This document shows positions 16,505 to 39,363 of a DNA stretch of 64,000 nucleotides, piece after piece. A program made the position numbers and the translations under genes. The notes beneath the pieces were generated by a model that was not told the DNA's origin, did not search any database, and was given only the letters and a program-made list of their open reading frames with translations. The number at the start of each line of letters is the position of its first letter. Positions within the stretch are counted from its first letter, which is position 1. Source of the stretch: Octopus vulgaris (lineage: Eukaryota); NCBI GenBank assembly GCA_951406725.2, contig OX597834.1, positions 22,072,001-22,136,000 of the forward strand, given 5' to 3'.

Positions 16505-16536
<32 letters not shown>

Positions 16537-17001: not shown

Positions 17002-17022
17002 AAATAATAATAATAATAAGAA

Positions 17023-17076
<54 letters not shown>

Positions 17077-17171
17077 TGATGATGATAATAATGATAATGA
17101 TAATAATGATAATTATAATGATAATGATAATAATAATAGTAATAATAATAATAATAATGATAATAATAAGG

Positions 17172-17207
<36 letters not shown>

Positions 17208-17245
17208 GTGATGATGATGAGGATGGTGATGATGATGATGATGCT
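17002..17245. repeat. (AAT/GAT)n trinucleotide tract
   Basis: Directly visible. Confidence 0.97.
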
Positions 17246-17806: not shown

Positions 17807-17841
<35 letters not shown>

Positions 17842-17857
17842 TGTAGGTAGGTATGTA

Positions 17858-18088
17858 GGCGGCGAGCTGGCAGAAACGTTAGCACGCCGGGCGAAATGCT
17901 TTGCGGTATTTCGTATGCCGCTACGTTCTGAGTTCAAATTCCACCGAGGTCGACTTTGCTTTTCATCCTTTCGGGGTCGATTAAATAAATACCAGTTACG
18001 CACTGGGGTCAATATAATCGACTTAATCCGTTTGTCTGTCCTTGTTTGTCCTCTATGTGTTTAATCCCTTGTGGGTAGTAAAGAAATA
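17858..18088 (+). mobile_element. SINE family B
   Basis: Near-identical to 10408-10638. Confidence 0.9.
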
Positions 18089-18236
18089 GGTGTGTAGGTA
18101 GAGACAGACAGACAAATAGTAAAAGACTTGTTCTATTTCTTTTCCTGAGTGCCATACTAATACATTTGTTTTGTTTGTACTCCACCTGCCTTTGTCTTTT
18201 GTTTATTTTCGTAAACCTTCCCGTTATATATATATA

Positions 18237-18595
18237 CTAGCAGTATCGCCCGGCGTTGCTCGGGTTTGTAAGGGAAATAACTATATAAGCATTTTTAGAG
18301 AGTTATAGCCAAAAAATAGCAAAAAAATGCATTAAAAATGGGAAAAAAATTATGGTAAATTCTTTTTTAAATCGTTGACTCATCGTAGACAATTTTTAGA
18401 TAATAGCGAAAAAAATGCATTAAAATGGAAAAAAATTATGGTAAATTTTTTTTTAAATCGTAGACGCGCGCTAATACCCAGAAGGGCTCGATATGAATCA
18501 CGACTATAAGATAGTTAAACTGCACCGCAAAATGTGGGAGTAGTTAGAAATCTAAATCGTAGGAGACAGACACACAACTTCACTTTTATATATAT
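18237..18595 (-). mobile_element. Non-autonomous Helitron
   Basis: Minus-strand 3' end has a cccgagcaacgccggg hairpin followed by CTAG|T; 5' end 'tatataaaagtgaagttgtg' is shared with 20186-20582. Confidence 0.8.
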
Positions 18596-19094
18596 ATACA
18601 CTTACTTACATACAAGCATATATACACACACATTCATATGCCATCCACAGAAATTCCCTTTTGTAATTCAAGCAATTGGCATTATCTCCCCTTCCTTTCC
18701 CCCCCTCCCTCCTCTCTCTCCCTCACCAATTCCATTGTTTACTTAGATATATCCAACAAGCAATCACTTGTTTCTTCTGAAAATCTTTCTCCCAATAAGT
18801 TTTAACATTAATAAATATCACATTATTTTCTTTCTATTTTTTTTATTCAATAATGTTTTGCATCTCAAACACTGATAGGGTCTTACCGATTCTATGTCAT
18901 TCTCTGCTAGACAGAAGACAGACAGCACTATGCGATTTACCTTATAATGTCTTCTAGCATATAATTCTACCATTCGCCAATATTAGTTCCTTTAACAGAT
19001 TAACCATTTGCCGACTGTTATCTTTTTTTTTTTTTTTTTTTTGGCTTTTTATTTCAATAATTATCCAAGAAAATATTGCCTGAAGGTTATAAAG

Positions 19095-19098
19095 TATG

Positions 19099-19138
<40 letters not shown>

Positions 19139-19335
19139 TCACGATAATAATAATAATAATAATAATGGCAATAATAATAATAATGGCAATAATAATAATA
19201 ATGGGAATAATAATAATAATAATGGCAATAATAATAATAATAATAATAATAATCATGATGATAATAATAATAATAAGAAGAAGAAGAAGAAGAATCATGA
19301 TGATAATAATAATAATAATAATAATAATAATCATG

Positions 19336-19370
<35 letters not shown>

Positions 19371-19596
19371 CATGATGATGATAATAATAATAATAATAAT
19401 AATCATGATAATAATAATAAGAATAATAATAATGATGATGATGATGATGATGATGATAATAATCATGATAATAATAATAATAATAATAATCATGATAATA
19501 ATAATAAGAATAATAATAATGATGATGATAATAATAATAATAATAAGAAGAAGAAGAATCATGATGATAATAATAATAATAATAATAATCATGATG

Positions 19597-19634
<38 letters not shown>

Positions 19635-19722
19635 CATGATGATAATAATAATAATAATAATAATCATGATAATAATAATAAGAATAATAAGAATGATGAT
19701 GATGATAATAATAATAATCATG

Positions 19723-19756
<34 letters not shown>

Positions 19757-19815
19757 TAATGGCAATAATAATAATAATACTGGTGATGTTGATGGTGATG
19801 ATGATGATGATGATG
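19095..19815. repeat. Long (AAT)n tract punctuated by CAT-GAT and AAG units
   Basis: Directly visible; source of the poly-N and poly-I pseudo-ORFs. Confidence 0.97.
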
Positions 19816-20185
19816 ATCTTATGGAAGTTTCTTTTATTCCATTTATGTTGCATTACTGGAATGAACACGGCGATTTTTGTAAAAGTATTAGCAGAATACT
19901 GATTCTAGTTTCTTGAGATACAGGAATGTGTGTGTGTGTGTGTGCGTAAATGTATGCATGTATGTATGTGTGTGCATGTAAGTATGTATGTATATGTATA
20001 TATGTATGTGCCTATGTATGTATGTCTGTATGTATGTATATGAGTGTATATGTATGTATATGCTGGTGTGCGTATGTGTATGTTTTGTGTGTATGTATAT
20101 GTTTGTATTTATGTATGTAATATATGTATATACGTAAATATGTGTGTGTGTAAGTATGTATGTATGTATAGCTATCTGTGCATCA

Positions 20186-20582
20186 TCTTTATATATAAAA
20201 GTGAGGTTGTGTGCTGTCTGTCTCCTACGATTTAGATTCCTAACTACTCCCACATTTTGCGGTGCAGTTTAACCAAAACCAGGTATCTTATAGTCGTGAT
20301 TCATATCAAGACCTTCTGGGTATTAGCGCGCGTCTACGATGAGTCTACGATTTAAAAAAAAATTTACCATCAATTTTTCCCATTTTTAATGCATTTTTGG
20401 CATATATAAGGGAAGTAACTCTCTAAAAATTTATTATTAAATCTCAGAATGTAAAAAGCTACAGTAACACCCCCCCCTTTATGGTTAGCCATATTGAGAT
20501 GGCTATTATACTTTACATCTCTAAAAATGCTTATATAGTTATTTCCCTTACAAACCCAAGCAACGCCGGGCGATATTGCTAG
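20186..20582 (+). mobile_element. Non-autonomous Helitron with complete termini
   Basis: A|TC...CTAG|T junctions, subterminal GC-rich hairpin (cccaagcaacgccggg), no TSD. Confidence 0.85.
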
Positions 20583-20719
20583 TACTTAATAAAAGTACTG
20601 TACAAATTTGTAGTGCTACTCATCAGAAACATAATTCCAAAAGAGTTAAGAGAAAGTTTGAAAATAAGAATACTGAGTCATGCCATTCCATGGATAAAGA
20701 GAGTCTCAGATGCCGATGT

Positions 20720-21332
20720 CAATGATAATGATAGCAACGACAGTGATGAAGATGACGATGATGATAACAACAATGACAGTAATGATGACAATGATTAGGT
20801 TGATAACAATGCTGATGATGATGATGATAACAATGATGACTGATGATGATGACAATGCTGATGATGATAACAATGATGATTATGATGACGATGCTGATGA
20901 CAACAATGATGATGATGACAGTAACAATGATGATGACAATGATAATGATAGTGACGAAGATGACAATGATGAGGATAACGATGACAATGATGATGATGAC
21001 AGTGACGATGATGATGATAACAATGACAATGTTGATGACAACGCTGATGATGATGATAACTGATGATGATGATAACGATGATAACTGATGATGATGACAA
21101 TGCTGATGATGATGATTATGATGACAATGCTGATTATGATGACAATGCTGATGAGTGATGATGATGACAACGATGATGATGACAGTGACAGTGATGATAA
21201 CGATGACATGACGCTGCTGCCGATGACAACGGTGATAATGCCGATGTTGTTGATGATGATGATGACGAGGAGGACAATGATACTGATAATAACAATGATG
21301 ATGATGATGACAGTGACGATGACCACGACGAC
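20720..21332. repeat. Degenerate (GAT/GAC/AAT)n tract
   Basis: Directly visible; the poly-Asp frame is broken by stops. Confidence 0.93.
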
Positions 21333-21737
21333 ATAATGCATTATCCTCCTTTTATTTCATACTCTTTAGGTGTTGAAACCAAATACAGACATACAACCAC
21401 ATACATACATACATACATACATACATACATCCATACATGCAGATATTGATATATTTACTCATATATATATATATACGCATAAATATACCTATATATGTTT
21501 CATGGTAGTCGTTGGTTGCGTTATCATTTTTTATACCTATTTTCCTGTGCTGGTGTGGTTTGGGATGCGACTCTTTGATGCAAGGTTTTATGTGGAGGCG
21601 GCATTCCTGGCGACAACACTTTCACTTTCACTCACCTCTTACATGTTCCTTGTGTACATACAGTAAAAACACCTGAAGTCACATGGTTTTGTGTGTGTGT
21701 GTGTGTGTGCATGCGTGAGTATATATTTATACATGCA

Positions 21738-21782
<45 letters not shown>

Positions 21783-21820
21783 TAAAAATACCTGAATTCA
21801 CATGGTTTTATGAGTGTGTG

Positions 21821-21865
<45 letters not shown>

Positions 21866-22698
21866 ATATAAATGTGTGTATGTGTATATATATCTGTGTG
21901 TGTGTGTATATACACCAATATATGTGTTTATACATATACACATACATAAGCTTTTATATATGCAAATATATGTATATGTGTGTGTGTGTGTGTGTATATA
22001 TGTGTGTGGGTGCATGCTTACACTTATGTATTTACATGCACATTTATATGTGTGTGTGCATGTATATACATATACACACACAGACACAATGCATATATGT
22101 ATATATACATATTTATATATATATATGTGTGTAAAACAAGGGTTTTACAAACACAGCAGTTCATCGTGGTAATCTTTATTCGTTTATTGATATATCGATT
22201 GGTTTTAGATCAATCACTCATTTTATTGTTTTATTTTTGTTTCGTTTTTTTTTTTTTATTCGTGTTTTTTTTTAGGTCGTTTTTTTTTTTTGGTCGTTTT
22301 TTTTTTCTTCTTTCCATTTCATTTTTAACATTAATGCTTGCGTTATCTAAAAAACGCGCGCAGCACTATTTTTTCAAGAACTCCTTAACAGTTATGGCAG
22401 CGACCACCATAACCATAACAACAACAACAACAGCAAAGAAATGAAATGAATAAAATATACAGAAAACAAAAAATAAACAAAACAAAAAAAAAAAAAATTG
22501 CGAGTTCGTTAAAGTACAAAAACACAAAGTACACATATACCTCAGTAACAAAAATATCATTAAACACCCCACCCCCCGCCTCCCCAAAATATACACAAAA
22601 ACCGATGCCATAATCCTCACCGAGGATTTTCAGATTGGAGGGAAAATAAATAAATAAAAAAATAACTTTATTATAAAGTGCACTTGATTTGTACTTAC

Positions 22699-22830
22699 CA
22701 TTATGTAAAGCGTAATTGTGTGTTTTGGGGGAGGTTTTTTTTATCATTTTATTAATTTTGTTTTGTTTGGTTTTTTTTATTTTATTTTTTTTATTAATAT
22801 TATTTTCTTAAGTAATGGCGGCCATATTTT
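22699..22830 (-). promoter_or_regulatory. Candidate promoter and first exon ending in ATG|GTAAGT
   Basis: YY1-like GCCGCCAT core on both strands (aatggcggccatatttt ~22814-22830); ATG at 22701-22699 directly followed by a consensus donor (22698-22693); local CpG retention; GC box ccccgcctcc near 22575. Confidence 0.4.
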
Positions 22831-23355
22831 CTGTCTTTTTCGAAAACAGAAAGAAAACGCGTTATTTTAAAATAGGTAGACTTAGAAATAGCCTAACTGC
22901 AACAATCAGAAATGGGGGAATTCAAGGTGGATTTAAGGTACATTGGGAGATAAAAAAACTTGTTTGTTTATTTATTTAGGGCTTTTTTTGCTTATTTATT
23001 CATTTATTTGGTTCTTTGTTGTTGTTGTTGTTTTCTAATGTTTTTTTTTTTAATGTTTTTTTGTTGTTGGTTTACTTGGTGAGGGTGAGATTAATCAGAG
23101 ACGTGTGTAGTTCTATATTTGTACGTCTAGAATTAAGATTTCTTGTAGCACGTGTGTATGTATACGGTTATTATGCTTATTATTATTATCATTATTATTA
23201 TTATTACCTGAAAATACTGTGACAGTTAATCAAATGCCTAGAGTTATCAAGATTAGCACAAAACTCAAGGAGTTTGAGTAAATTCTACAATATTCACAAG
23301 CAGCAGCAGTAGTAGTAGTAGTAGTAGTAGTAATACTAATAATAATAATAATAAT

Positions 23356-23388
<33 letters not shown>

Positions 23389-23679
23389 CCTTTCTGCTAT
23401 AGGCACAAGGCCTGAAATTTTGGGGGAGTAGGGTTAGATGATTACATCAACCCCCATCAACTGGTATTTATTTCATTGATGCTGGGAGGATAAAAGTCAA
23501 AGTCAGCCTCAGCGGAATTTGAACTCAGAATGTAAAGACAGACGAAATATCGCTAAGCCTTTCTCGTGCCTATATAGTAGAAAGTATGATTATTCTTCCT
23601 CATCATCATTAGTATTCATTGTCCATGCTGGTATGGGTTGGACGGTGTGACCAGGGCTTGTAAGCTGAGGGATGCCCTT

Positions 23680-24220
23680 CATCATCATCATCATCATCAT
23701 CATCATCGTTTAACGTCCGCTTTCCATGCTAGCATGGGTTGGACGGTTCAACTGGGGTCTGGCAAGCCCGAAGGCTGCACCAGGCCAGTCAGATCTGGCA
23801 GTGTTTCTACAGCTGCATGCCCTTCCTAACGCCAACCACTCCGAGAGTGTAGTGGGTGATTTTATGTGCCACCGACACAGGTGCCAGACGAGGCTGGCAG
23901 ACGGTCACGCTCAAATGGTGTTTTTTATGTGCCACTGACACAGGTGCCAGACGAGGCTGGCAGACGGCCACGCTCGGATGGTGTTTTTTATGTGCCACCG
24001 ACACAGGTGCCAGACGAGGCTGGCAGACGGTCATGCTCGAATGGTGTTTTTTATGTGCCACCGACACAGGTGCCAGACGAGGCTGGCAGATGGCCACGCT
24101 CGGATGGTGTTTTTTATGTGCCACCGACACAGGTGCCAGACAAGGCTGGCGAACGGCTACGATCGGATGGTGTTTGTTACATGCCCACAGCACGGGGCCA
24201 GTCGATGCGGTACTGGCTAA
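23680..24220 (-). mobile_element. SINE-like family C element (core ggttggcgttaggaagggcat, tail 'ggacgttaaacgatgatg') carrying an internal minisatellite
   Basis: Core and tail shared with 27670-27831, 35130-35280, 24770-25136 and 5955-6115. Confidence 0.75.
23864..24200. repeat. 63-bp minisatellite, 5 copies plus a partial sixth
   Basis: Unit starts at 23864, 23927, 23990, 24053 and 24116; each unit has a TGCCAG-6nt-CTGGC(A) hairpin. Confidence 0.95.
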
Positions 24221-24587
24221 TGCCAAAATCATTTAAAAATTTAATGTAAGACAACTTGAACAAGAACCAGTACAATCAGAATACTATTTGATGAGCTTTG
24301 CTATTGAAATTCAGGTATAAATTGTTGGAATGAATTCATCCAGGATTGATTTGTATATCTAAGATGCTTGCTTGATCAGAGATTTTTTTTCTTCTCCTCA
24401 GTTTTGGAAAGTTCCTGGCTGTGAATATTCCTTTCTCTTCTAGATTGCTTAATTTAATCAGAATCTGCCGGCTGGATAACTTCACTGGAATCCAGATTTT
24501 CTGCAGACATCTTGGAGCTGCTTTTTCTATTGATATTCTCCTCTGAATCAAAAGCTGTAACTGGCATATTGTCTGATGGTTCTCTCA

Positions 24588-24624
<37 letters not shown>

Positions 24625-24769
24625 GGCAAACTGGCAGAATAGATTAACATACTGGACAAAATACTTAGTATTTCATCCATCATTATGTTCTGAGTTCAAA
24701 TTACACCAAGGTAGACTTTGCCTGTCATTGCTGGCCTTGTGCCAAAATTTGAAACCAGTGTTCATCTTG

Positions 24770-25136
24770 CACACGATCACCTCTTCCAATGCCGCCTCCT
24801 TGCTCAAAAATTCCTTGTCTTGCAAGTTACTTGGTGACCCTGCCGATGCTGGTCCCATGTAAAAAGCGTCCAGTCCACACTGTGAAGTGGTTGCCATTTG
24901 GAAGGGAATCCAGCTGTAAAAACCATGCCAAAACTGACCTCACCTGTGCTGGTGCCATGTAAAAAGCACTCAGCCCACTCTATAGGGTGGTTAATGTTAG
25001 GAAGGGCATCCAGCTGTAAAAGCCATGCCAAAACAGACAGAAATCTGATGCAGTTTTCTGCCTGGCCAGCTCTTCTCAAACCATCCATCCTATGCCAGCA
25101 TGGAAGGTGGACGTTAAACGATGGTGATGAGGATGA
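24770..25136 (+). mobile_element. SINE-like family C element with a duplicated ~100-bp core
   Basis: The 'gctggt.ccatgtaaaaagc...ggaaggg.atccagctgtaaaa.ccatgccaaaac' block occurs twice. Confidence 0.7.
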
Positions 25137-25544
25137 GGCACAGGAGTGGCTGTGTGGTAAGTAGCTTGCTAACCAACCACATGGTTCCGGGTTCAGTCCC
25201 ACTGCGTGGCATCTTGGGCAAGTGTCTTCTGCTATAGCCTCGGGCCGACCAAAGCCTTGTGAGTGGATTTGGTAGACGGAAACTGAAAGAAGCCTGTCGT
25301 ATATATGTATATATATATATATATGTATGTGTATATGTTTGTGTGTCTGTGTTTGTCTATCTAGCATTGCTTGACAACCGATGCTGGTGTGTTTACGTCC
25401 CTGTCACTTAGCGGTTCGGCAAAAAGAGACTGATAGAATAAGTACTGGGCTTACAAAGAATAAGTCCCGGGGTCGATTTGCTCGACTAAAGGCGGTGCTC
25501 CAGCATGGCCACAGTCAAATGACTGAAACAAGTAAAAGAGAGTA
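25137..25544 (+). mobile_element. SINE family A, full length, young
   Basis: Reverse complement of 8511-8920 with few differences; lies directly after the GAT tail of the family C element. Confidence 0.9.
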
Positions 25545-25564
25545 TGATCATCATCATCATCATA

Positions 25565-26002
25565 GCTGTTACATTCTATATTGAGGTTTAGTGACAGCAA
25601 GTTGCCTCAAATCTCAAGAATCTTACCTAGGGTTCTTGCAGAGTGCAGGTTGGTTCTCTTCTACAGGTTGACAATGTAGAAGTCTCAATTCCAGTATCTT
25701 CCAACCTGTGAGATAGCCATTTGGATATTGTAAGAGTGCACCAATTACCACAAGAATAATTGTCATCTTAATCTCCAACAACCTCTTCCTCCCTCTGGTC
25801 CTGATATTTTTTTTTTCCCCATTTCTGTGGTATCCATTCTGTTAACATATGGCACTGCAAAGTCTGTTGATTTTGTCCTCTGTATTCATATCTGGCCTTG
25901 TTGCTTCAACAGTAAGTTCGGTCTTTAGGAGGAAGTCTCATGAAATCGTGTAATTTTTATTCTCCATCACAGCCTCAGATTTGTCTTCATATCTCCTCTT
26001 CC
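25565..26002 (-). mobile_element. R4/Dong-like LINE 3' fragment (restriction-like endonuclease domain)
   Basis: Minus frames give YEDKSEAVMENKNYTIS*DFLLKTELTVEATRPDM...DFAVPYVNRMDTTEMGKK.YQD...MTIILVVIGAL, i.e. the WDF / RPD / D-x-AVP / EK..KY / VIGAL motifs of RLE-type LINEs; frameshifted. Confidence 0.8.
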
Positions 26003-26177
26003 TCATCATCATCATCATCGTCATCATCATCATCATCATCAACATCATCATCAACATCATCATCATCATCAACATCAACATCATCATCATCATCATCAAC
26101 ATCATCATCATCATCATCATCAACATCACCATCATCATCAACATCATCAACATCATCATCAACATCATCAACATCAA

Positions 26178-26218
<41 letters not shown>

Positions 26219-26390
26219 ACATCATCAACATCATCATCAACATCATCAACAACATCATCATCATCATCAACATCATCATCATCATCAACATCATCAACAT
26301 CATCATCATCATCATCATCATCAACACCATCATCATCATCATCAACATCATCAACATCATCAACATCATCATCATCATCATCATCAGCAT
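26003..26390. repeat. (CAT/CAA)n tract
   Basis: Directly visible. Confidence 0.97.
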
Positions 26391-26819
26391 CATTATTTCT
26401 ATTAAGTCGCCGACCAGCTTACATCCAGCTTAGTGCTTTAGTGTTTTCTAGCAAGAATCTCCAGAGGCCTACGGATTAACTTTACCATTTTAGAAGCCAC
26501 CAGAATTTCCATCCTTAAACTAAAACTGTCAGAAGTAGGAGCGTTTCCTCCTAAGTTAATGCCTCTTTTACCATTTTCTCATAGACTTCTACTATCAACT
26601 ACAAAAACTCCTAAATACACACCCACACACACTTTCTATCCCCCTCCCCCACTCTTCTCTCTCTCTCTTTCTCATTTCTTTTGTTTTCTTGGCTTGTTTT
26701 CTTTTTTATTCTTTTGTGCTTTCCATTTTACTTTCTTTGTTTTGTTTTTGCTTAAGCTGTCATTCACATCTCTCTCTCTCTCTCTCTACACACACATATA
26801 TATCTATGTAGGTATATAT

Positions 26820-27049
26820 GCGGCGAGCTGGCAGAAACGTTAGCACGCCGGGCGAAATGCGTAGTCGTATTTCGTTAGCCATTACATTCTGAGTTCAAAT
26901 TCCGCCGAGGTCGACTTTGCCTTTCATCCTTTCGGGGTCGATAAATTAAGTACCAGTTGCACACTGGGGCCGATGTAATCGACTTAATCCGTTTGTCTGT
27001 CCTTGTTTGTCCCCTCTATGTTTAGCCCCTTGTGGGTAGTAAAGAAATA
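26820..27049 (+). mobile_element. SINE family B
   Basis: Near-identical to 10408-10638; flanking direct repeat ggtatatat. Confidence 0.9.
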
Positions 27050-27317
27050 GGTATATATGTTGTATGTATGTATGTATGTACATAGGATTAAGGTTTCAGT
27101 TCCTGGATTGGGCGATGCATTGTATTCTTGAGCAAAACACTTCCTTTGACGTTGCTCCAGTCAACTCAACTTGAAGAAATGCACAACCCTGTGACAGACT
27201 GATGTCCTACCCAGGGTGGGGAATATATGCACCACACAATCCAGGAAACTGGCCTTATGAGCCTATGGCTTGGGAAGGGCTGTTGATCCTTTTCACACAC
27301 ACACACACACACTTTAG

Positions 27318-27530
27318 ATTGAGGTCCCCCTGCTCTGCTCAGTGCTTGTGGCAGCAAGCTTCCTCCACTGGGTCCAGTTGGCCACTACTTTTGCACATCC
27401 ATTCTTTGTAATGTTGACTGTCTTCTGGTCATCTTGAAGTGTTTGCCACCAAGTGATCTTCAACCTTTCCCTTTTATGTCTGCTGACAGGTGGGACCCAA
27501 TTCATGACCGTTTTCAAATGCCAAGTTATA
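27318..27530 (-). mobile_element. RTE-type LINE extreme 3' fragment
   Basis: KTVMNWVPPVSRHKRERLKITWWQTLQDD...ANWTQWRKL resembles the RTE C-terminus (W.P.GKR.RGRPK.TW...A.DR..WR). Confidence 0.65.
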
Positions 27531-27846
27531 CCAGTGGTTCTCAACAGGGGTCCATATAAGATTTTCTTAGGATTTTAGGGGCAATAAATTGCTTATGCTT
27601 CTGCAATTCATTAAATATTTTTCTTTTTGTTTCTATAAAAATACTCTAGGATTTATATATATATATTACCCACTACACTCACGAAGTGGTTGGCGTTAGG
27701 AAGGGCATCCAGCCGTAGAAACATTGCCAGATCAGACTGGGCCTGGTGCAGTATTCTGGCTTCCCAGACCCCAGTTGAACCGTCTAACCCATGCTAGCAT
27801 GGAAAGCGGACGCTAAACGATGCTGATGATGATATATATATATATA

Positions 27847-28160
27847 GTGCAGGTGTGGCTGTGTGGTAAGAAGCTTGTTTCCTAACCACATGCTTCTAGG
27901 TTCAGTCCCATTGCATGGCACCTTGGGCAAGTGTCTTCTATCATAGCCTTGGACTGACCAAAGCCTTGTGAGTAGACCTGGTAGATGGAAACTGAAAGAA
28001 GCCTATCGTATATATGTTTGTGTGTGTGTGTATATGTGTGTGAGTGAGTGTCCAACCCATCCCTCCCACTTTTTGATAACTGGTGTTGGTGTGTTTACGT
28101 TCCTGTAACTTAGCAGTTTGGCAAAAGAGACCAATAGAATAAGTATCAGGCTTATAAAAA
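27847..28160 (+). mobile_element. SINE family A (3' incomplete), preceded by a family C fragment at 27670-27831
   Basis: Head and body match 25137-25544. Confidence 0.8.
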
Positions 28161-28420
28161 CTCAAGATAGATAGATACATACACACACGACGATATCAAA
28201 AATATGTTTAAGCGCGATCCTTTTTAGTGAGAATGTTTTTTTCATATTTCAACGAAACAAAGTACTGATTAAGAAATAAGAAGAAAAAAAATTTTAATAA
28301 CAAAAATGATCTTAAACACAGTCGTGTTTTATTAAAAATTGCTTGAATGCCTTCCCCTCCTCCCTCTCCTATGCAAATTTATGTGTGCACATAATTGTCT
28401 GTGTATGTATATATATATAT

Positions 28421-28930
28421 ATATATATAAAACTGTAGTTGTGTGAGTGTCTGTCCCCTTCGATTTAGATTCCTAACTACTCCCACATTTTGCGGTGCAG
28501 TTTAACCAAATTCGGGTATCTTATAGTCGTGATTCGTATCGAGCCCGTCTGAGTATTAGCGCGCGTCTACGATGAGTCTACGATTTTAAAAATAATTTAA
28601 CATCATTTTTTATTCCATTTTAGTGCATTTTTTTTCGTGTGTCGATGGCGGCGGAGTTGGCGTCCATGGTCACACCTGCACCTGCTTGCTTCTCCCCCTT
28701 CTTCCCTCCCTCGTGAAGCTGTGGGGAAGGCAGTGTAAGGAAATCAACGTCGTAAAGCGTTGTCAAGGAGACCAGCGTTCTTTTAGAACAACGACTTCAT
28801 GGCTTGAAGACACCAAAATTACCATCATTTTTTATTCCATTTTTAATGCATTTTTTTGCTATAACTCACTAAAAATGCTTATATAGTTATTTCCCTTACA
28901 AACCCGAGCAACGCCGGGCGATACTGCTAG
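28421..28930 (+). mobile_element. Non-autonomous Helitron with a GC-rich internal segment
   Basis: Same 5' block and hairpin-CTAG|T end as 20186-20582; segment ~28635-28815 is absent from the other two copies. Confidence 0.8.
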
Positions 28931-29467
28931 TATATATATATGAATGTATGTAAGTGTAGGCGTGAAACTGAGTAGCCAACAGCACAGTGGTGTGTTTTAG
29001 AACGTACATACATAGATACATATACACACTATTTCTTATCACATCAGTAACACAACTTTATCTTACGCTCACTTTATTTACTTTTCCCTTAAACTGCTCC
29101 TCTCTCTTTCTCTCTTCCTCTGTCTATCAATCTATCTCTCTCATACCTTCTTCACACTTTTCTTCTGCTCCATTCACTCTATACCTTTCTCTCTCTCTCT
29201 CTCATACCCTTATTCCTTCTTTCTTTACCTTTTCCTGTCTCCCCCTCTCTCGCCCAATCTATCTATCTATCTATCTTTTTTTTTAAATTTTATTTTATCC
29301 CCCCCCCCTTTTTTTGTCCTCTTTCTTTCCATTTACGATCCCTTTTGATCAAAAACCAAACCCCCTTCTTTTACCCCCAAAAGAAAAGCTCTACCTTGTA
29401 ATTTTGTCCTGTCTGTGTGCAGCCCTGTGTGGCTAATAAAGAAACATATCTATCTATCTATCTATCT

Positions 29468-29632
29468 ACGTTCTGAGTTCAAATTCTGTCGAGGTCGACT
29501 TTGCCTTTCATCCTTTCGAGGTCGATTAAATAAGTACCAGTTACGCACTGGAGTCGATATAATCGACTTAATCCGTTTGTCTGTCCTTGTTTGTCCTCTC
29601 TGTGTTTAGCCCCTTGTGGGTAGTAAAGAAAT
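29468..29632 (+). mobile_element. 5'-truncated SINE family B within (TATC)n
   Basis: Starts at 'acgttctgagttcaaatt' and matches the family B body and tail. Confidence 0.85.
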
Positions 29633-29715
<83 letters not shown>

Positions 29716-29717
29716 CC

Positions 29718-29751
<34 letters not shown>

Positions 29752-30061
29752 CTTTCTCTGATAATCTCTTCATTCTCTCTTTCTTTCCCTCTTATTCATT
29801 CATTCTTTCCATATTCTCTCACGCTTTCATTGAAATATCTGCATACGATCTTACAACACACTCGTTCGTGTCTGTGTTTGTGTGTGTGTGGTGAAAAATG
29901 AATTTATTCAGAATTATGTATAGACATCAAGATAAGCAGACAGACACTGAAAGCTAGACACACACACACAACAACACATATAAAGAGAGAGAGAGAGATG
30001 ATGTAGATAGGTAGATAGATGGAGAGAGAAACAGAGGAAGAAGAGTGTGGCATGTATACAC

Positions 30062-30092
<31 letters not shown>

Positions 30093-30881
30093 TATACACT
30101 ACAGACACGTACGCACAATACACAAGTGTCATACATGCGATATATTATAAACAGACACATTGAGCTACATTATGTGTGTCTGCGTGTGTGTATATCTATA
30201 CGTATGTGTATGTATACGCACATCTACATCCTTATGTATACAGAATTATATAAACAAAGGCAGATATCACCCAACACCTCAATTCATTCATTCACCATAA
30301 ACATACACGCATACACACCCATTCATACACATTCAGAAACAGACAGTACTATAGTATATGTGTTTATATACACGCCGGCATATACATACATAACTTACAT
30401 TACAGGTGTTTATATACGCTCGTTCATACAAGTACAGACAGAAAGAGGCGAACACACACACACAGATATCTGGATACACACACCTGGACACACGTTTATG
30501 TTATGAGAAAGGGAGGGGGAAGCATGTAGGGAGGGGAAGTGAGAGGAAGAGTGATTTATATATATATATGTAAGGAAGAGGGATAAGCACGGGGGGGGGG
30601 GGCTATAATGTGAAGGAAAGAGAAAGGTTTATATAGGGAAGTAGGGAGGGAGAGAGAGAGAGAGAGACCAATTTTATGAATGTAGACAAAAGTGAAAAAA
30701 ATGAGAGGCGATTTATTTGCTTTCCCCATCGTTTTGAGGAAAATTTGGTAATATGATGGATGGATGTACAGTCTTCACAAACTCTTTCACTTAATAAATA
30801 GTTATTTTTTTAAACATCGAAATATGTTTATTCTGAAGGTAAGACAGCCTTTTATCATTTTAGAACTAATATTTCTCTCTT

Positions 30882-30913
<32 letters not shown>

Positions 30914-32254
30914 TCCCTCTCTATAGTCATATCCTTAATATTTATGATGTAATAATTTCGTGATAATATTGAGAAAAAAAAATTAAGTTACTTAAAATTT
31001 TGGCAAATTTTTTTCCCCCCCAGTAGTTTAATTTTCTCTCTGCTTAGTCACACACACACACACAGACATATTAAACTTCAACATCACCAGTAATGATAAT
31101 AATAATAATAATGGTTCCTTTTCACCACGTGTGTAGATATGGGGGGGGACATCACAAGGGCAGTCGATGGTTTGTTGTGGGAGGTGAGCTATTTAAAAGA
31201 TGAGGGGAAATGGTTTAATCGATTCTTTTGACCCTCGTACTTCCCTAGTACTTTACTTTAACGACACCCCCAAAGGATGAAAGAAGCAGTTGCCTTTGAT
31301 GGGATTTGAACTCAGAATGTAGAGAGCAAATGACAACAAGAATAATGATGCTTTATTTATTCGCTGCTAAGGATTCGCAAGAAACATTAGTGACTTTACA
31401 GGACAATACAAGTGGAATTTCTTACATAAAAGCGGGTACCAATTGAAATAAATGAAATAGAAAATTCAGACCAGGAATATTTCTTTAAAATGTGGTGGAG
31501 AAACCTTGGAAGATTTTATTCCTGTTAACGAAACCACAGTCTCACCAGTCAAAGACAAGAGTCCTCTAGTAAGAATAATAATCCTTTCTGTTTCAGGTAC
31601 AAGGCCTGAAATTTGGGGGAAGGTGGTTAGTGGATTACATTGACCCTAGTTCTCAAATGGTACCTATTTTATCGACCCCGAAAGGAATGAAACACAACGA
31701 AGACCTCGGTGCAATTTGAGTGTAGAATGTAGACAGACGAAATGCCGCTAAGCACCTTGTCTACCTGAGGGGGGTTTCCAAGAAGTTGTTGTTTCTAATT
31801 TAGTCCCAAGGCCAGTAATTTTAAGGGAAAGGGCTTAGTCGATGCTGTCAACTCCAGTACTTGACTGTTACTTTATTTTATCAACCTTGAACGATAAAGT
31901 TAACCGCGGCTGGTTTTGAACTCAGATCGCAAAGAGCGGGAATAAAATGTCGGAAGGAATTTTGTCCAACGCTCTTGGTGTAAGGTCAGCAATTTTCAGG
32001 AAGAGGTCGATTACATCGACTGGTACTTTAGTTTATCGATTACATCGACTGGTACTTTAGTTTATCGATTACATCGACTAATTATTATTATTATTCTTAC
32101 TAGAGGGCTCTTGTCTTTGGCTGGTGAGATCGTGGTTTCGTAGGGTTAAAAGGCATAATCTTCCAAGGTTTCTTCCACCATATTTTAAAGAAATGTTCCT
32201 GGCCTGATTTTTCTGTTTCATTTATTTTATCGATTACATCGACTCGTACTTTAT

Positions 32255-32349
32255 GTGGCGAAAGTAAAGAATACGTACACCCGGCGTTTAGGGTTAGGGT
32301 TTTTTGTTACACTGAAAACAGGTGGTGTACGTATTCTTTACTTCCGCCC
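32255..32349. mobile_element. ~95-bp MITE with 25-bp TIRs and internal TTAGGG repeats
   Basis: TIRs 32257-32281 and 32324-32348 (1 mismatch); 'tttagggttagggtt' inside; flanking TTTAT direct repeat. Confidence 0.75.
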
Positions 32350-33027
32350 TTTATTTTATTGAACTCCGAGAGACTGAAAATTAAAATTGACCCCAATGGG
32401 ATTCGAACATAGAACGTAAATAGTTGGAAGAAATACTTCACAGCAAATTAAGTCAGACGCTCAGAAGATTCTTCTAAAATCGGTTCGGTCCATTGTTTTG
32501 TCACCAGGGACCATTGTTGAGGAAAACCACGTTGCAATAACAACAACAAAATGATAATTGAATAAAGTCTGGAATGGGGAGAGAAAGATGGCGCAGGTGT
32601 AACTGTGATTAAGAAACTCGCTTTGTAGTCACATGAAGCCGAGTTCAGTCACACTGCGTGGAAACTTTGGACAGGTGTCTTGTAGTTATAATCTTGGACC
32701 GACCAATGTCTTGTTAGTGTATCTGGAAGATGGAAACCGTGATGAAGCCTGCCGTGTGTGTATGTATATATATATATATATATACACACAAATAAGAAAA
32801 TTGAGGAACAAATTCATTTCGATCATCAACTTACAGATATTGCAGTTTCATATTATTTATTAATTATATAAATAGGAACATGAAAATGGAACAAAACAAT
32901 ATACATCAATATGCAAATTAATTAGATAACTGATATCCCATAGTGAGTTACCCTCATAACCCCTATCTTACTTTGTACTATATATATATATATATTTATA
33001 CATATATATATATACCCTTCCATATTG

Positions 33028-33115
33028 GCTAACTCTGATGAGTGTAAAATATATAATCGGATTGTTACTTAACACTCCTTTGTATTCCTTGTGTGAAACC
33101 GATTGGCAAGATCAG
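33028..33115 (+). ncRNA. Decayed hammerhead motif (family H, copy 1)
   Basis: CTGATGA 33035-33041, GAAAC 33095-33099, then CGATTG-GCA; homologous to 38361-38435 and 38770-38837. Lies in an insert that splits a SINE A (32590-32760 and 33218-33482). Confidence 0.5.
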
Positions 33116-33989
33116 CCGTGATGGATATGTAATACTATATATTTCGGATGGTATAGCCCCGTTTAGTGTTGGCTGTCGGTTTATGAAAAAAATTAGGACT
33201 GGAGGTCAGAGCCGCCTAATGAGTGGAATTGGTAGATGGAAACTGAAAGAAGCCCGTCGTATATATATATATGTGTGTGTGTGTGTGTTTGTGCCCCATT
33301 ATCACTTGACAACCGATACTGGTTGTTTACGTCTCCGTAAATTAGCGGTTCGGCTAAAGAAACCGATAGAATAAGTAACTAGGCTTACAAAGAATAAGTC
33401 CTGGGGGTCGATTTGTTCGACTAAAGGCGGTGCTTGCTCCAGCATGACCGCAGTCAAAATGACTGAAACCAGTAAAAGAGTAATATACAATTTTTCATTC
33501 ATTTTTCTATCAATATACTTTGGGGAAATAAGTGTCGAAATGCTGTCTATTCATTTGAAAGTAAAAATTTTTGGATAGAGATGGATGTTTCGTTTCAAAA
33601 AGTTTCTGAGATTGAAGTGGCTTCCTCTTTTATTCTTTGTTTTTGTTTCTTTTGGGTTTTTTTCTTTTTCATTTATTGAGTGTTAGTGGGTGGTGTGGTG
33701 TGGTGATGAGTATCGGTTTGTGTGAGAGAAAAATACTTTAAATGTATTTATTATGTTTTGCATGTATATTGGTCGTCGTTTTTTTTTTTTAAAGTTGTTA
33801 ATGCATATATATGTGCGAATATGCGCTTCTGCGCTAGATGTGTATATGTTTGAAAACACACAGACGAATATTGAGAGGAAATATGAAAACGGGGAAAAAA
33901 TTGTTTGGGCCATTTCAATAATCACTGGATCCATGCATGAGAAGTGTTGTGTGTATCTAACTACATTTATCGATCTATCTATCTGTCTG

Positions 33990-34036
<47 letters not shown>

Positions 34037-34548
34037 GTCTATTTGCCTATCTATCTATCTGTCTATCTATCTATTTGTCTGTCTATCTATCTATTTGTCT
34101 ATCTATCTATCTATTTGTCTATTTATCTATCTGTCTGTCTATCTATCTGTCTGTCTATCTATCTGACTATCTATCTATTTGTCTATCTATCTATCTGTCT
34201 ATCTATCTATCTATTTGTCTGTCTATTTATCTATCTATCTGTCTGTCTATCTATCTGTGTGCGCGTGTATCTGTCTATATCTATGTGTATGCGTCTACAT
34301 ACAGTGTATGTGTGCATCTATCTATATCTTTGCATGTATGTGTATATTAAAGTCACCGGCCTTATCTCTTATCTAACTTCAATATATACTGCTTAGAGTG
34401 TGCTTCTTTCTCTGGGTTATATTTACGGACGATCGATATATACACACATATATATATACACACAGGCACGCACATACATTGTGTTTATATTGTACATACG
34501 TGTGTGTATATGTCCCATATGCATACGTACTAAACTTACCTATTTATA

Positions 34549-34602
<54 letters not shown>

Positions 34603-35599
34603 CACACGTGTGTGTGTATGTACACACATCCCCTCGTGTGTATGTATGTATGTATGACTATATTGGTTAATGTGCCATTTCTTAACATGTTAAAGAAATC
34701 TCCATAGCTTTATCGAATAGTAAAGCACGGGAAGCAAAAAAATATATATATATAATAGTAAAGTAATAAAATTACTTTTAAACATTTGTATAAAAATAAA
34801 AATACAGATCGTAAGTTATCAAATAGAAAAATGCGAAAGTATTTTGATAATGCATAAAAGATGTTTACTTCAATTTTGTAAAAGTATATTTTACAATTCG
34901 ATAGTGTCGTAAGAGGGAAAAATCAGAAGTAGATCGAAGTGATTGGTGAATGTGTGAGATAAGTGAGTGAGTCTATGTTCAATGGTAGTGTCTGGAGAAA
35001 GGGGAAAAGGTGATCCCTGTGAACAGGACTTAACAGTTTTCTCCTCAGAAAAAGAGAGATCTGCGGGGTTTGAGCAAAGATAAGTGTTCCAGATGATATA
35101 TTACGGCAATATTTTATTTACGAACATATCTACACTCACGGAGTGGTTGGCATTAGGAAGGGCATCCAGCCGTAGAAACATTGCCAGATCAGCCTTCTAG
35201 CTTCCCAGACCCCAGTTGAACCGTCCAACCCATGCTAGCATTGAAAGCGGACGCTAAACGATGATGATGATGATGATGATCTAAAAACTAAATTGGCCTT
35301 TTAGATTAATTCAGAAGTTTCATACAGTTTGGATTATTTTGTACAGAGATCTAATTAGCTTAAGATAATTGCAAGTCGTATACATCTCTCTCTCTCCATA
35401 CACACACAAAGACACATATACATACCCACACATAATGGACTTCCACGCAGTTTCTATCGACCAGACTCACTCACAAGGTATTGGTCGGCCTGGGGATACC
35501 CAGGTGCCGCACATCGGGCAGGAACCAGAAACCAATGGCAAAACGGGCTTCTTAATCACACTGCTATGCTTACACCTTCTAAAATAAAATAAATATATA

Positions 35600-35821
35600 T
35601 ATTGGTAAAACGGTAAGATAACAAAAGAAAGAAAGAGACCTCAATATTATGTAAATAGAGGAAATTTATCTATACAATAATATGTTACATTACTCGATAG
35701 TCAAGATAAAACTCTGAGTTTCAGATGCCGAAGTGGGAATCCACGACATCTGTTCGGTTATCTGGCTATTTGAAAACGCTATCTTGACTATCGAGTAATG
35801 TAACATATTATTGTATAGATA
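35600..35821. mobile_element. Fold-back element with a perfect 42-bp inverted repeat around a hammerhead-like motif
   Basis: Arms 35667-35708 and 35780-35821; minus strand reads agataa-CCGAACA-GATGTCG/CGGCATC-T-GAAAC-TCAGA-GTT-ttatct. Confidence 0.6.
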
Positions 35822-36533
35822 TATATATATATATTTGTTAGCTTTGCTCAATGAAATCTATAGCTTGTCTTAGTGTTTCTAACAGAAAATAGATTTCACT
35901 CCTATTTCAGTCTTCAATGATTGTTAGCTAAGTAAACAGCTATGATAAACACGATTGTTCCCAAAATACAATGATTTAACGACCAGATCCACAACAACCT
36001 GCCATGCTGCCCATCCCAGTATGTATGCAATGAAATAATATGTAAAAACCATTTGGTTAAGAAAAATAGCTTGACGTTTAATAAGAGTCAATAAAAACTG
36101 TCTCTAAAGAATGAATATATATATATATATATATACATATATACATATATATACAGATCGCCATGTTGATTCGCTAGCTTCTGCACGCATTTTTTTTCTC
36201 TCCTTGTTTCTCTCCGTGTTTCCTTTCTGTTGAAGAGCATAGGCTCGAAACATAAAAGACTTGTTTTATTTATATTCCTGAGCGCCATACTAATACAATT
36301 GTTTGTTTGTACTCCACCTGCCTTCGTCTTTTGTTTATTTTCATAAAGCTTCCCGTTATATATATATATAATGGAGAAATTGTACAAAATGTACGAATGG
36401 ATGATGAGTAAAGCACTGGCACAGTTCCGATTACCTGTTGTTATCCATGGATTTACTGCAGGAACTTCGTAGTGGTGGTTGTGATAACAGTTTTAATAAA
36501 ATTGGAGATGGAATGTGTAATATACTTTATTGG

Positions 36534-36576
36534 GTACAACACATGTTTCGACACCATTCTGGGTCTCTTCAGGTAC
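36534..36576 (-). ncRNA. Minimal type I hammerhead ribozyme, apparently intact
   Basis: GTAC-CTGAAGA-GACCC agaat GGTGTC-GAAAC-ATGT-GTT-GTAC: full core, 4-bp stem I, bulged stem II, short stem III with palindromic ACATGT; AATAAA 2 nt downstream. Confidence 0.7.
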
Positions 36577-36997
36577 ATCAATAAAAAGTCTTACTAGAAA
36601 TTTCTTGAGTCGGCTTACATACTGCTAAATGTCCATCAAATTCGAGAATATATATAGATTAATTGCGTAAGTAAAATTGCATAATTTATTAACAGTGAAA
36701 CAGTTGTCTGGGGTTAATCTATATTTTTGTTATTTTTCATTTGTCCTGCTCACTTACATTCATAGTGTGCTAAATTTTTCTTGAGAACAATTCTTAGTGG
36801 TTGCGACTCATGTGGATCTCTCTTTAGCGTAAGAGCGTCCACATAGTGGATTCTCTCACATATTTGTGTGTATGTGTATGTGTGTGTATATATATATATA
36901 ATCACATACACACTTTATACATAAAAAAAAACCCCACAACTTTATCATTAACAGAAAGAAAACAGACCAACGAACACACCTATATATAGCCCCATTT

Positions 36998-37080
36998 AGG
37001 CAAGTGTCTTCTATAATAGCCTTGAGTGGAATTGGTAGACGGAAACTGAAAGAAGCACGTCATATGTATGTAGATATATG

Positions 37081-37113
<33 letters not shown>

Positions 37114-37335
37114 GAATATTTGTGTGTCTTTGTCTCCCCATCATCGCTTGACAACCAATGCTGGCATATTTATATCCCCGTAACTTAGTGGTTCAGCAAA
37201 AGAGACCGACAGAATAATTACTAGGCTTACAAAGAATAAGTCCTGGGGCCGATTTCTTTGACTGAAACCCTTTAAGGCAATGCTCCAGCATGGCCACAGT
37301 CAAATCACTGAAACAAGTAAAAGAATAAAAGAATA
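36998..37335 (+). mobile_element. SINE family A, 5' truncated and older
   Basis: Body and tail match 25137-25544. Confidence 0.8.
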
Positions 37336-37922
37336 CGTGACTTTTCGAAAATTAATTTTATTCCTGGTTTTTTTGTTTTTTGTTCTTTTTTTGTTTCTGA
37401 CTTTTATATTTTTTTTCTCTTGCTTGAGAATCTTAAAATTCTAACAGTAATTGCCAAGAAACAAGGAAGGCGCTGTTGAGGTGTGGAAGTGTTCTCCTCT
37501 TGTGGACGCACCAAAAGGTGGATGATTAGTGGCGGAAATTGGTGGATGGAACTACGTGGCGCACTGTCTTGTCGGTGGAGAACGATGATCAGGAAAAGGG
37601 GACACTTGCCTTTGGCGGCGAGGGTGACATCAGATCCATGGGGGGGGGGTCCCCAATTGGCCCTTGTTGAAGGTTGTACTGTATCAGGAGAGTGGTGAGG
37701 TGTGTGTAAAATAAGGCACCAGCTGAATACTGAGGGTTGGGTGTTGCAGAAATCTAACATGGGCTTTTCTATCCCCACCAAATTGTTTGTAGGTTTCTAG
37801 CAACATTAGACAGTGTTTAACATGAATCTGACAACTTTATTTATTTATAAATCTTTTTATTTATTCCTTTTGAAAATTTTTGGTTGTCATTATTATTATC
37901 ATTATTATTATTATCATTATTA

Positions 37923-37966
<44 letters not shown>

Positions 37967-38360
37967 CATTATTATTATTCCTTCGTAGTGATTAGAAATA
38001 ACTTTTTTTCAAAGGTATCTGATGGATTTTAATATAATTTATAATATATATATATATACTTATGTATATATGTGTGTATATAGATGAATAAATATTTATG
38101 TGTGTTTGTGTGTATGTACAGAAACCTACCTTCATTTGTTTATTTTTTAATTATCATTATTACATTAATTGAAAAGGAAATGAATGAATATTCAATAAAC
38201 AAATATCTCCATTTTCTTTCATTTTCATGTAGCCCATCAATTATACCAATGTATATAGTTGCCTAAAAATTCCAAAATCAGAAAAAAATAGGCACTTGTT
38301 ATATTTGTCACTAGAGTAGGTTACTAATCTTAAGATGCACATTGTTATAGAACCATTTCA

Positions 38361-38435
38361 GCCAATCTTACCAATCAGTTTCACACAGGAAATTTGATGG
38401 TTACATACATAATGCCACACTCATCAGAGTAGCTA
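38361..38435 (-). ncRNA. Decayed hammerhead motif (family H, copy 2)
   Basis: CTGATGA 38427-38421, GTGTGG..CTGTGT, GAAAC 38382-38378, TGATTG, GTA. Confidence 0.55.
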
Positions 38436-38769
38436 GCATGGAAAAACTGGTGACAGCTCTCTGCTAATCGAGATCGGCAAATGTCACTTCTGGTTTATGG
38501 ATGCTGTGAAAAAAGACAGAATTGAACCTGTGGGAGACAGTCAGAGGAAGACTCTATCAAGAGTTATGTTCCTTATCTAAAAAAAAAAAGAATATGAGTG
38601 GTAACTTCCAGCAAAGTGAGGTTTGGGTGTGGGAAGTGAGGTGTTGATGTGTGCAGGAGGTTATCAGAAGGAGGCGAGGGGAAGCAGCCAAGCCTTAAAT
38701 GCATGTGTATGTATAGCTGGGTGTGATCAGTACTATACTGGACTCTGGGGTTGTTATGGTGAGAAGACT

Positions 38770-38837
38770 GATAGCTCTGATGAGCACAGTGTTAAGTAGT
38801 CACCTAATTTCCTGTGTGAAACCAACTGGTAAAATCT
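38770..38837 (+). ncRNA. Hammerhead motif (family H, copy 3)
   Basis: CTGATGA 38777-38783, stem II GCACAG/CTGTGT, GAAAC 38818-38822, CAACTG, GTA 38829-38831; stem I is damaged. Confidence 0.6.
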
Positions 38838-39038
38838 GTTGAAATGGACCAACATTAAGATTAATATACCCACTTTATTAACCAATGCACAAGTGCCTGT
38901 TATTTCTGACTCATAGATACTTAGATGACTATATATATCTATATGGTGTATGTGTGTGTTTGTTTTTTTAATTCTTATTGGTTTGACTATGACAAAACGT
39001 TGTCTTAGATGTGGTTACTTGACTATTTCTTCCTTCAG

Positions 39039-39086
39039 AAACAGTAATGCTGCCTCCTGGAGTCCTAAGTCCAATGCTACTTTCAG
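39039..39086 (+). CDS. Candidate 48-nt internal exon of an unknown gene
   Basis: ttgac branch-like motif, atttcttccttcag acceptor, AG|GTACAG donor; frame-preserving; open as TVMLPPGVLSPMLLS or NSNAASWSPKSNATF. No recognised homology. Confidence 0.25.
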
Positions 39087-39363
39087 GTACAGAATTTCAT
39101 ACAATCTATGTTCTCCAAGTGTCTGTATGTGCCTGCATATGTGTGTGTTTGTGTGAATATGTATGTGTGCGTTTTGAGTGTTGGTAAAAACAAAAACAAC
39201 AAAAACACTCGCACAACTGGTGTTATTTTTTTAGCAATGTCTCAGTGTAGCACTAATGGCTAGTTTCATATATATATACACAAACACACACATATATGTA
39301 TATTTATACACACACACAAACATATATATATATATTTATATACACACACACATATATATTTAT

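What the first reader, a model, noticed from the sequence alone, without database searches (positions are those of the whole stretch)
33028..38837. Three-copy hammerhead family degraded by CpG decay, with a reconstructable ancestor
Seen: stem II 5' strands are GTGTAA, GTGTGG and GCACAG; 3' strands are TTGTGT, CTGTGT and CTGTGT; stem III interiors are CGATTG, TGATTG and CAACTG. Most differences are CG>TG or CG>CA. Inference: the ancestor was CTGATGA-GCGCGG...CCGCGC-GAAAC-CGATCG-GTA, a canonical hammerhead with a palindromic stem III. This suggests germline methylation eroded the ribozyme stems while the CpG-free core survived. Since invertebrate methylation is mostly in gene bodies, it also hints that the region is intronic.
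Basis: partly seen in the sequence, partly recalled or inferred. Interest (0 to 1): 0.7.

Follow-up and report, generated by a model that had tools for sequence, protein, structure and literature searches.

The report
Fossil Penelope hammerheads in octopus intron
These three motifs are decayed tail ends of an old Penelope-type jumping gene, each carrying a hammerhead-shaped RNA that is predicted to be inactive, lying in an intron of an octopus neuron navigator gene; their CG-site decay likely records patchy germline DNA methylation, and the arrangement is a known one.

Summary
The three motifs are real (3 hits, 0.05 expected). They belong to a genome-wide family: the 3' UTR hammerhead of an old Penelope-like retrotransposon with Hydra-clade motifs. 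In 20 of 29 loci picked by its endonuclease, the motif follows on the same strand. Site 1 is a lone truncated end. Sites 2 (minus strand) and 3 form a head-to-head pair, a known insertion shape.

CpG decay is confirmed: 57% of CpG sites against about 8-10% of other sites. It tracks flanking CpG depletion (rho -0.63), not divergence. The region is intronic (neuron navigator).

The proposed single ancestor fails. Stem III was CCGATTGG (second site TG in 70 of 87, CA in 0). Site 1 descends from GCGTAAGG/CCTTGCGC. No exact GCGCGG or CCGCGC occurs in 211 parsed copies. The core is not CpG-free: G12 is lost in 14 of 63 copies.

All three copies are predicted inactive, and site 3's apparent ortholog in a relative has lost core bases. 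One oddity is unexplained: non-CpG core bases diverged about half as much as expected. The scan earlier reported similar Hydra-type foldbacks on other DNA. Verdict: a new family of a known kind.

The parts
33009..33158 (+). Site 1: lone 5'-truncated 3' end of the Penelope-like element (younger subfamily A1), next to a (TA)n run
   Evidence: Profile hit E 5e-38; 81-87% identical to its 22 best matches; coverage
33035..33108 (+). Site 1 hammerhead: core 33035-33041, GAAA 33095-33098, triplet GCA (U16.1>C), stem II reduced to four G-U and two A-U pairs; predicted inactive
   Evidence: stem II pair probability 0.02 or less
38250..38775 (-). Site 2: long arm (about 520 bp) of a head-to-head pair, older subfamily, antisense to the host gene
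   Evidence: Homology to L260 and L256 over 38242-38775
38369..38427 (-). Site 2 hammerhead: core intact, stem II with five G-U pairs, hammerhead fold not predicted
38766..38935 (+). Site 3: short inverted arm (about 170 bp) joined to the 5' end of site 2; the start boundary is approximate
   Evidence: the two arms pair in the predicted fold of 38260-39100, z -3.4
38777..38831 (+). Site 3 hammerhead: core and GUA intact, stems II (6 bp, G10.1-U11.1) and III complementary, stem I only 1 bp next to the core; predicted misfolded
   Evidence: stem II probability 0.0 alone and in context; core changes in the apparent ortholog
39039..39086 (+). Host gene: 48-nt alternative exon of neuron navigator (AG/GT flanked), about 100 bp downstream of site 3
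   Evidence: present in some isoforms, absent in P0046 and P0047
58794..58868 (+). Host gene: second alternative exon, about 72 nt (tblastn limits; splice sites not checked)
   Evidence: 100% identity over 25 aa

Best explanation
The three sites are 5'-truncated 3' ends of an old Penelope-like retrotransposon family, likely of the Hydra clade, lying in an intron of a neuron navigator gene, and each carries a type I hammerhead motif that is predicted to be inactive today. In the active parents the ribozyme, 400-900 bp behind the endonuclease, would have cut the element RNA near its 3' end (inferred from known PLE biology; not assayed). Target-primed reverse transcription at (TA)n then likely left mostly short stumps, often with an inverted second arm, as at sites 2 and 3. 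After insertion the copies decayed, fastest at CpG, likely by deamination of methylated cytosine where the surrounding region was germline-methylated. Site 1 and sites 2/3 come from different subfamilies with different stem II ancestors.
For: Family: 178 exact hits of a 3' flank pattern, control 0; 82 core-pattern hits, control 15. Parent: L122 and L045 share about 920 bp upstream that reach an endonuclease remnant. 20 of 29 endonuclease-selected loci have the motif downstream on the same strand, 2 only on the opposite strand, 7 none. RT, endonuclease and hammerhead are colinear in L231, E 2e-62 against an intact Hydra-type ORF. CxCX5C, CxxC and CxH motifs are present, as defined in PMC8557442 section 11. 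Inverted arms: 36 of 91 rows listed, 2 of them downstream, as described in PMC4209133 and PMC8557442. A microsatellite lies within 160 nt in 68 of 91. Subfamily majority sequences fold into the three-way junction as their minimum-energy structure. CpG decay is 57%, correlates with flank CpG o/e (rho -0.63, p 1e-6, n 50 of 63) and not with other divergence (rho 0.18, p 0.2). Intron.
Against: No Rfam hammerhead model matches these sites or the well-preserved copies L031, L190 and L092, even at E 10. Covariation over 68 copies does not exceed shuffles (65 of 500 reach it), although 86% of cells pair against 28-43% for slid controls. Pfam names none of the protein pieces. No full-length old copy was found, so RWK, DKT and paired pLTRs are unseen, and no tree was built. 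Non-CpG core bases are more conserved than simple neutral decay predicts (22 of 630 against 46-54 expected). PMC9476566 reports low present-day somatic methylation on octopus transposons. In L031 and L190 the proximal stem I pairs have low predicted probability (0.06 or less), and in L190 stem III too.
Confidence: 0.9

Rival explanations
1. One reading: one free-standing hammerhead family with a single ancestor GCGCGG/CCGCGC and CGATCG, and a CpG-free core.
For: CpG decay is real. GCGCGG fits the 5' strand of sites 2/3. Non-CpG core bases are well kept.
Against: Second stem III site TG 70, CA 0 of 87. T at position 4 in 30 of 30 site-1 relatives; 0 of 211 exact GCGCGG or CCGCGC, 2 of 211 CGATCGG. 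G12 lost in 14 of 63. The motif is physically linked to a retrotransposon ORF.
Confidence: 0.03
2. The site 2/3 foldback, or the sense hammerhead of site 3, has been co-opted by the host: it would form double-stranded RNA, or cut the pre-mRNA, and so affect inclusion or editing near the 48-nt neuron navigator exon.
For: The foldback ends about 100 bp before the exon's acceptor. The arms pair in the predicted fold, z -3.4. Site 3 keeps all 11 fixed core bases and GUA. The pair appears to predate the split from organism E.
Against: One contig of organism E spanning both arms differs at about 6% of letters and carries G8>A and U16.1>G in site 3 (38782, 38830; a single contig). Hammerhead helices have probability 0.0 in context. 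About a third of all copies have such inverted arms, so the shape needs no host function.
Confidence: 0.06
3. The stumps are a non-autonomous, retrozyme-like element that spread as short hammerhead RNAs using the Penelope enzyme in trans.
For: Most copies are 100-300 bp. Animal retrozymes are reported to derive from PLE pLTRs (10.64898/2026.07.22.740005). The core is under-diverged.
Against: 5' ends are ragged and grade into the ORF. Copies are dispersed; I saw only occasional nearby same-strand pairs (e.g. L077/L078), not tandem arrays. Unrelated copies differ hardly more than the two arms of one insertion (8.4-8.6 against 7.9 of 55 columns), which leaves little room for secondary sources.
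Confidence: 0.07

Closest known systems
Hydra-clade Penelope-like elements, including Hydra-1_Obim of Octopus bimaculoides (Craig et al. 2021, PMC8557442; I saw passages, section 11 and supplement parts 2 and 52)
   Same: RT followed by a C-terminal endonuclease; CxCX5C linker; CxxC before the conserved E and CxH after the conserved N; (TA)n insertion; hammerhead near the 3' end; inverted truncated copies. By eye, the thumb, linker and endonuclease region closely resembles Hydra-1_Obim.
   Different: A different hammerhead sequence from Hydra-1_Obim's. It has 39-58 nt between the two core halves (long branched stem II), against roughly 12-25 nt in the published Hydra table, and an extended, bulged stem I. 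The 3' UTR is longer (400-900 bp). The family is extinct in the copies seen, with several subfamilies.
Hammerheads of metazoan PLE pseudo-LTRs (Cervera and De la Pena 2014, PMC4209133; I saw parts 1-2 of 4)
   Same: Type I topology, a larger-than-usual helix II, a short near-palindromic helix III, mostly single dispersed motifs, and pairs 100-700 bp apart on opposite strands.
   Different: Helix III here has 3 bp plus a 4-nt loop, so monomer folding is predicted for intact copies. The palindrome is imperfect (G-U pairs).
Non-LTR retrozymes (10.64898/2026.07.22.740005; I saw part 1 of 5)
   Same: Type I hammerhead related to PLE pLTRs, non-coding as found.
   Different: Not organised as tandem repeats; directly continuous with a PLE ORF in long copies.

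Membership tests
Hydra-clade PLE | Single ORF, RT then C-terminal GIY-YIG endonuclease | tested here: met
   Colinear remnants in L231, L232, L249 and L250; 35% identity of P0001 to the 683-aa P0002
Hydra-clade PLE | CxCX5C linker | tested here: met
   CSCRGNTTC in L188 and L191; CSCMGNTTR in L190
Hydra-clade PLE | No CCHH cysteine pair between GIY and YIG; CxxC and CxH around the conserved E and N | tested here: met
   Translations (CRLC before E; CPH after N; no Cys pair between the two motifs)
Hydra-clade PLE | RWK and DKT motifs in the N-terminal RT region | not tested
   No colinear old copy fetched reaches further upstream than residue 200 of the young ORF
Hydra-clade PLE | Insertion at (TA)n | tested here: met
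   Microsatellite of any listed type within 160 nt in 68 of 91; (TA)n beside sites 1 and 3; no random control was run
Hydra-clade PLE | Placement in the RT phylogeny | not tested
   Published reference sequences could be read but not loaded into the tools
PLE (general) | Pseudo-LTR tandem and inverted 5'-truncated structures | tested here: inconclusive
   Inverted arms are common; no old copy with two flanking pLTRs was found
Type I hammerhead ribozyme | Core C3 U4 G5 A6 N7 G8 A9, G12 A13 A14 A15, U16 H17 (PMC3088659): family majority, sites 2 and 3 | tested here: met
   35 of 63 copies keep all 11 fixed bases
Type I hammerhead ribozyme | Same core in site 1 | tested here: not met
   U16.1>C at 33107
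Type I hammerhead ribozyme | Three helices around the core, family majority | tested here: met
   Minimum-energy folds of three subfamily majorities and of natural copy L031; 86% of cells paired; covariation not above shuffles
Type I hammerhead ribozyme | Three helices in the window's copies | tested here: not met
   Predicted folds lack the junction
Type I hammerhead ribozyme | Match to an Rfam hammerhead model | tested here: not met
   the long stem II is a likely cause (inference)
Type I hammerhead ribozyme | Self-cleavage 3' of H17 | not testable with these tools
   Needs a bench assay
Non-LTR retrozyme | Tandem repeat units each with a hammerhead | tested here: not met
   Dispersed single or inverted copies in the fetched loci

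The most novel reading that the evidence does not exclude
The hammerhead core stays under constraint after insertion, or foldback arms are copied from different RNAs of a ribozyme-selected pool: even the two arms of one insertion differ at only 7 of 166 non-CpG core positions against 19.5 expected. If this is real, hundreds of apparently dead Penelope stumps in octopus pre-mRNAs are kept cleavage-competent or record RNA-level selection.
Probability: 0.1. Interest if true: 0.65.

Novelty: new member of a known kind. Interest (0 to 1): 0.25.

Why it matters
As it stands this is modest: a further octopus Penelope family with a long-armed hammerhead that Rfam misses. Two things are usable. First, the copies act as a fossil methylation reporter: CpG loss varies strongly between loci (overdispersion p 1e-8) and follows regional CpG depletion, in an animal whose transposons are reported to be little methylated in somatic tissue. 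Second, 12 of 63 natural copies still pass core and stem criteria, so the ribozyme can be assayed without any reconstruction. It is also a caution: three copies from two subfamilies gave a wrong ancestor, and core survival was partly an effect of searching by the core.

Tried and rejected
Rfam found nothing for the family. Pfam gave no significant hit on four remnants, P0001 or P0002. The protein atlas returned no result. Two patterns for the site-2/3 subfamily found only 2 hits each, so that ancestor rests on 18 loosely defined relatives. The first tblastn used a wrong fragment and was redone. One search stopped with an error after folding L031, so four further natural copies were not folded there. 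One search's arm comparison included core-selected copies and was redone without them. A context calibration from other repeats did not remove the core deficit (46 expected, 22 seen), but it rests on few positions per context. Expression: no RNA holder listed. Contigs of runs only guessed to be RNA cover parts of 38183-38830 with no joints and no interpretable editing, so they were not used as evidence. The identity with Hydra-1_Obim was rejected (different hammerhead). The identity with the young intact family L211-L230 was rejected (no profile hit). Rows dropped before counts: L121 (99% duplicate of L120); 3 of 90 truncated rows; 46 of 109 copies not homologous across the core; 13 of 63 with under 1 kb of flank in the correlation; 74 of 285 segments that did not parse as a full motif.
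Full report
Observation. The quoted stems are in the sequence: site 1 at 33035-33099 (+), site 2 at 38378-38427 (-) and site 3 at 38777-38822 (+). The core pattern has 3 matches against 0.05 expected. The three align beyond 300 shuffles each, and a family profile finds only these three in the window. Site 1 has GCA instead of GTA at the cleavage triplet.

The family. The own genome (G000, 2.8 Gb) holds many copies. A 30-letter 3' flank pattern has 178 exact matches with 0 for the control. A core pattern has 82 against 15, and an older-type flank pattern has 36 against 0. The profile found 285 distinct segments in the fetched loci, of which 211 parsed as full motifs. Several hundred to a few thousand copies is my estimate, not a count. 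Most copies are 5'-truncated stumps of 100-300 bp, and 68 of 91 end within 160 nt of a microsatellite. Of 91 flank-selected rows, 36 show an inverted partner nearby, 2 of them downstream. Sites 2 and 3 are such a pair: a long arm 38250-38775 (-) joined head-to-head to a short arm of about 38766-38935 (+).

The parent. Two copies share about 920 bp upstream, reaching a broken endonuclease frame. Using that frame as query, 20 of 29 other top loci carry the motif 380-880 bp downstream on the same strand, 2 only on the opposite strand, and 7 not at all. In L231 RT, linker, endonuclease and hammerhead are colinear. The remnants show CxCX5C, CxxC before E, CxH after N and no cysteine pair inside GIY-YIG, the features that PMC8557442 gives for the Hydra clade. 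The published Hydra-1_Obim looks like a sister by eye but has another hammerhead. A young intact family in this genome also has another hammerhead. RWK, DKT and a tree were not tested.

The ribozyme. Majority sequences of three younger subfamilies fold as a type I hammerhead: an extended bulged stem I, an 8-bp stem II capped by a long inner hairpin (54 nt between the core halves) and a 3-bp stem III. Over 68 copies 86% of cells pair, against 28-43% for slid controls, but covariation does not beat shuffles. One pair in site 1's subfamily covaries (G-C 8, A-U 5, G-U 3, A-C 0 of 16; p 0.03, chosen after inspection). Rfam misses the family. Site 1 fails the core definition of PMC3088659. Site 2 is antisense to the host and has five G-U pairs in stem II. 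Site 3 keeps the core but has one stem I pair next to the core, and its stem II has predicted probability 0.0 alone or with the inverted arm. One contig of organism E that spans both arms carries G8>A and U16.1>G in site 3. Inactivity is predicted, not shown.

The ancestor. In 87 of 90 flank-selected copies, the first stem III dinucleotide is CG 27, TG 27, CA 25, the signature of a decayed CpG. The second is TG 70, CG 2, CA 0, so it was TG. The ancestor read CCGATTGG, self-complementary only with G-U pairs. Site 1's 30 relatives give GCGTAAGG/CCTTGCGC, with a GCGTAAAG/CTTTACGC variant. For sites 2/3 the 5' strand GCGCGG is plausible, but the 3' strand shows TG without matching CA in 18 loosely defined relatives, which favours CTGTGC over CCGCGC. 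The core contains a CpG across C11.1-G12: G12 is changed in 14 of 63 copies. A search that requires GAAA cannot see those copies.

Methylation. In 63 of 109 copies chosen without core letters, 191 of 333 CpG sites have decayed, against about 8-10% change elsewhere. Decay is overdispersed (p 1e-8). It follows flank CpG o/e (rho -0.63, n 50) and not the copy's other divergence (rho 0.18). Regional germline methylation is the likely cause (inference). PMC9476566 (passages) reports methylation enriched in introns and exons and low on transposons.

Host gene. Two large exons flank the window, 98-99% identical to a protein named neuron navigator 2-like of an Octopus species. The splice sites are phase-compatible GT/AG, and two alternative exons lie inside the window, at 39039-39086 and about 58794-58868. 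All three sites lie in the intron of about 82 kb before the first of them. I could not label the other loci as intronic or not.

Unexplained. Non-CpG core bases changed 22 of 630 times against 46-54 expected, and 7 of 166 against 19.5 between arms of 28 inverted pairs. Arms share subfamily marks yet differ almost as much as unrelated copies (7 pairs). The fastest columns lie in CC/GG runs, which the core lacks, so mutation context is my leading explanation; my calibration did not confirm it.

Novelty. Hammerheads in PLE ends, opposite-strand pairs and an octopus Hydra element are published. Searches showed no paper on this particular family. The scan's earlier notes describe similar foldbacks elsewhere; I reached this reading before looking. 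Verdict: a new, extinct family of a known kind, interest 0.25.

Noticed in passing
window 36534-36576 (-): A fourth hammerhead, from another and younger family, lies inside the finding's range. It has an intact core, a 4-bp stem I and a palindromic stem III (Rfam Hammerhead_1 20.2 bits, E 0.39). At least 40 genomic copies at 89-94% identity. Antisense to the host gene.
   Followed up: partly
window 36200-36330 (+): Another repeat with a hammerhead-like GAAGAG...GAAAC motif lacking the leading C. 15 matches in 1.29 Mb of fetched DNA, some from overlapping loci. It may be one of the rewired hammerhead families in the scan's notes; not tested.
   Followed up: partly
L211-L230 (e.g. G000:C12:36373432-36375477): A young Hydra-type family with intact open frames of about 727 aa (65 scored matches, most without stops). 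A compact hammerhead lies downstream in 20 of 20 loci and also upstream in 14 of 20, as pseudo-LTRs would give. Probably recently active.
   Followed up: partly
window 39039-39086 and 58794-58868 (+): Two small alternative exons of neuron navigator, used in different combinations among annotated isoforms.
   Followed up: yes
window 16000-36000: CpG o/e is higher here (0.70-0.88 in four of five 4-kb bins) than in the rest of the intron (0.2-0.57), so methylation looks patchy within one intron.
   Followed up: no
L239:7305-7476 (G000:C21, about 63 kb upstream of the window): A further copy of the same family; the only one found in 160 kb of flanking DNA.
   Followed up: no
L120 and L121 (G000:C5:28.88 and 29.27 Mb): Two loci 99% identical over at least 1.7 kb: a recent segmental duplication or an assembly duplicate.
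   Followed up: no
window 14535-15105: Remnant of a non-LTR retrotransposon-like reading frame on the minus strand (the label is recalled, not tested).
   Followed up: no
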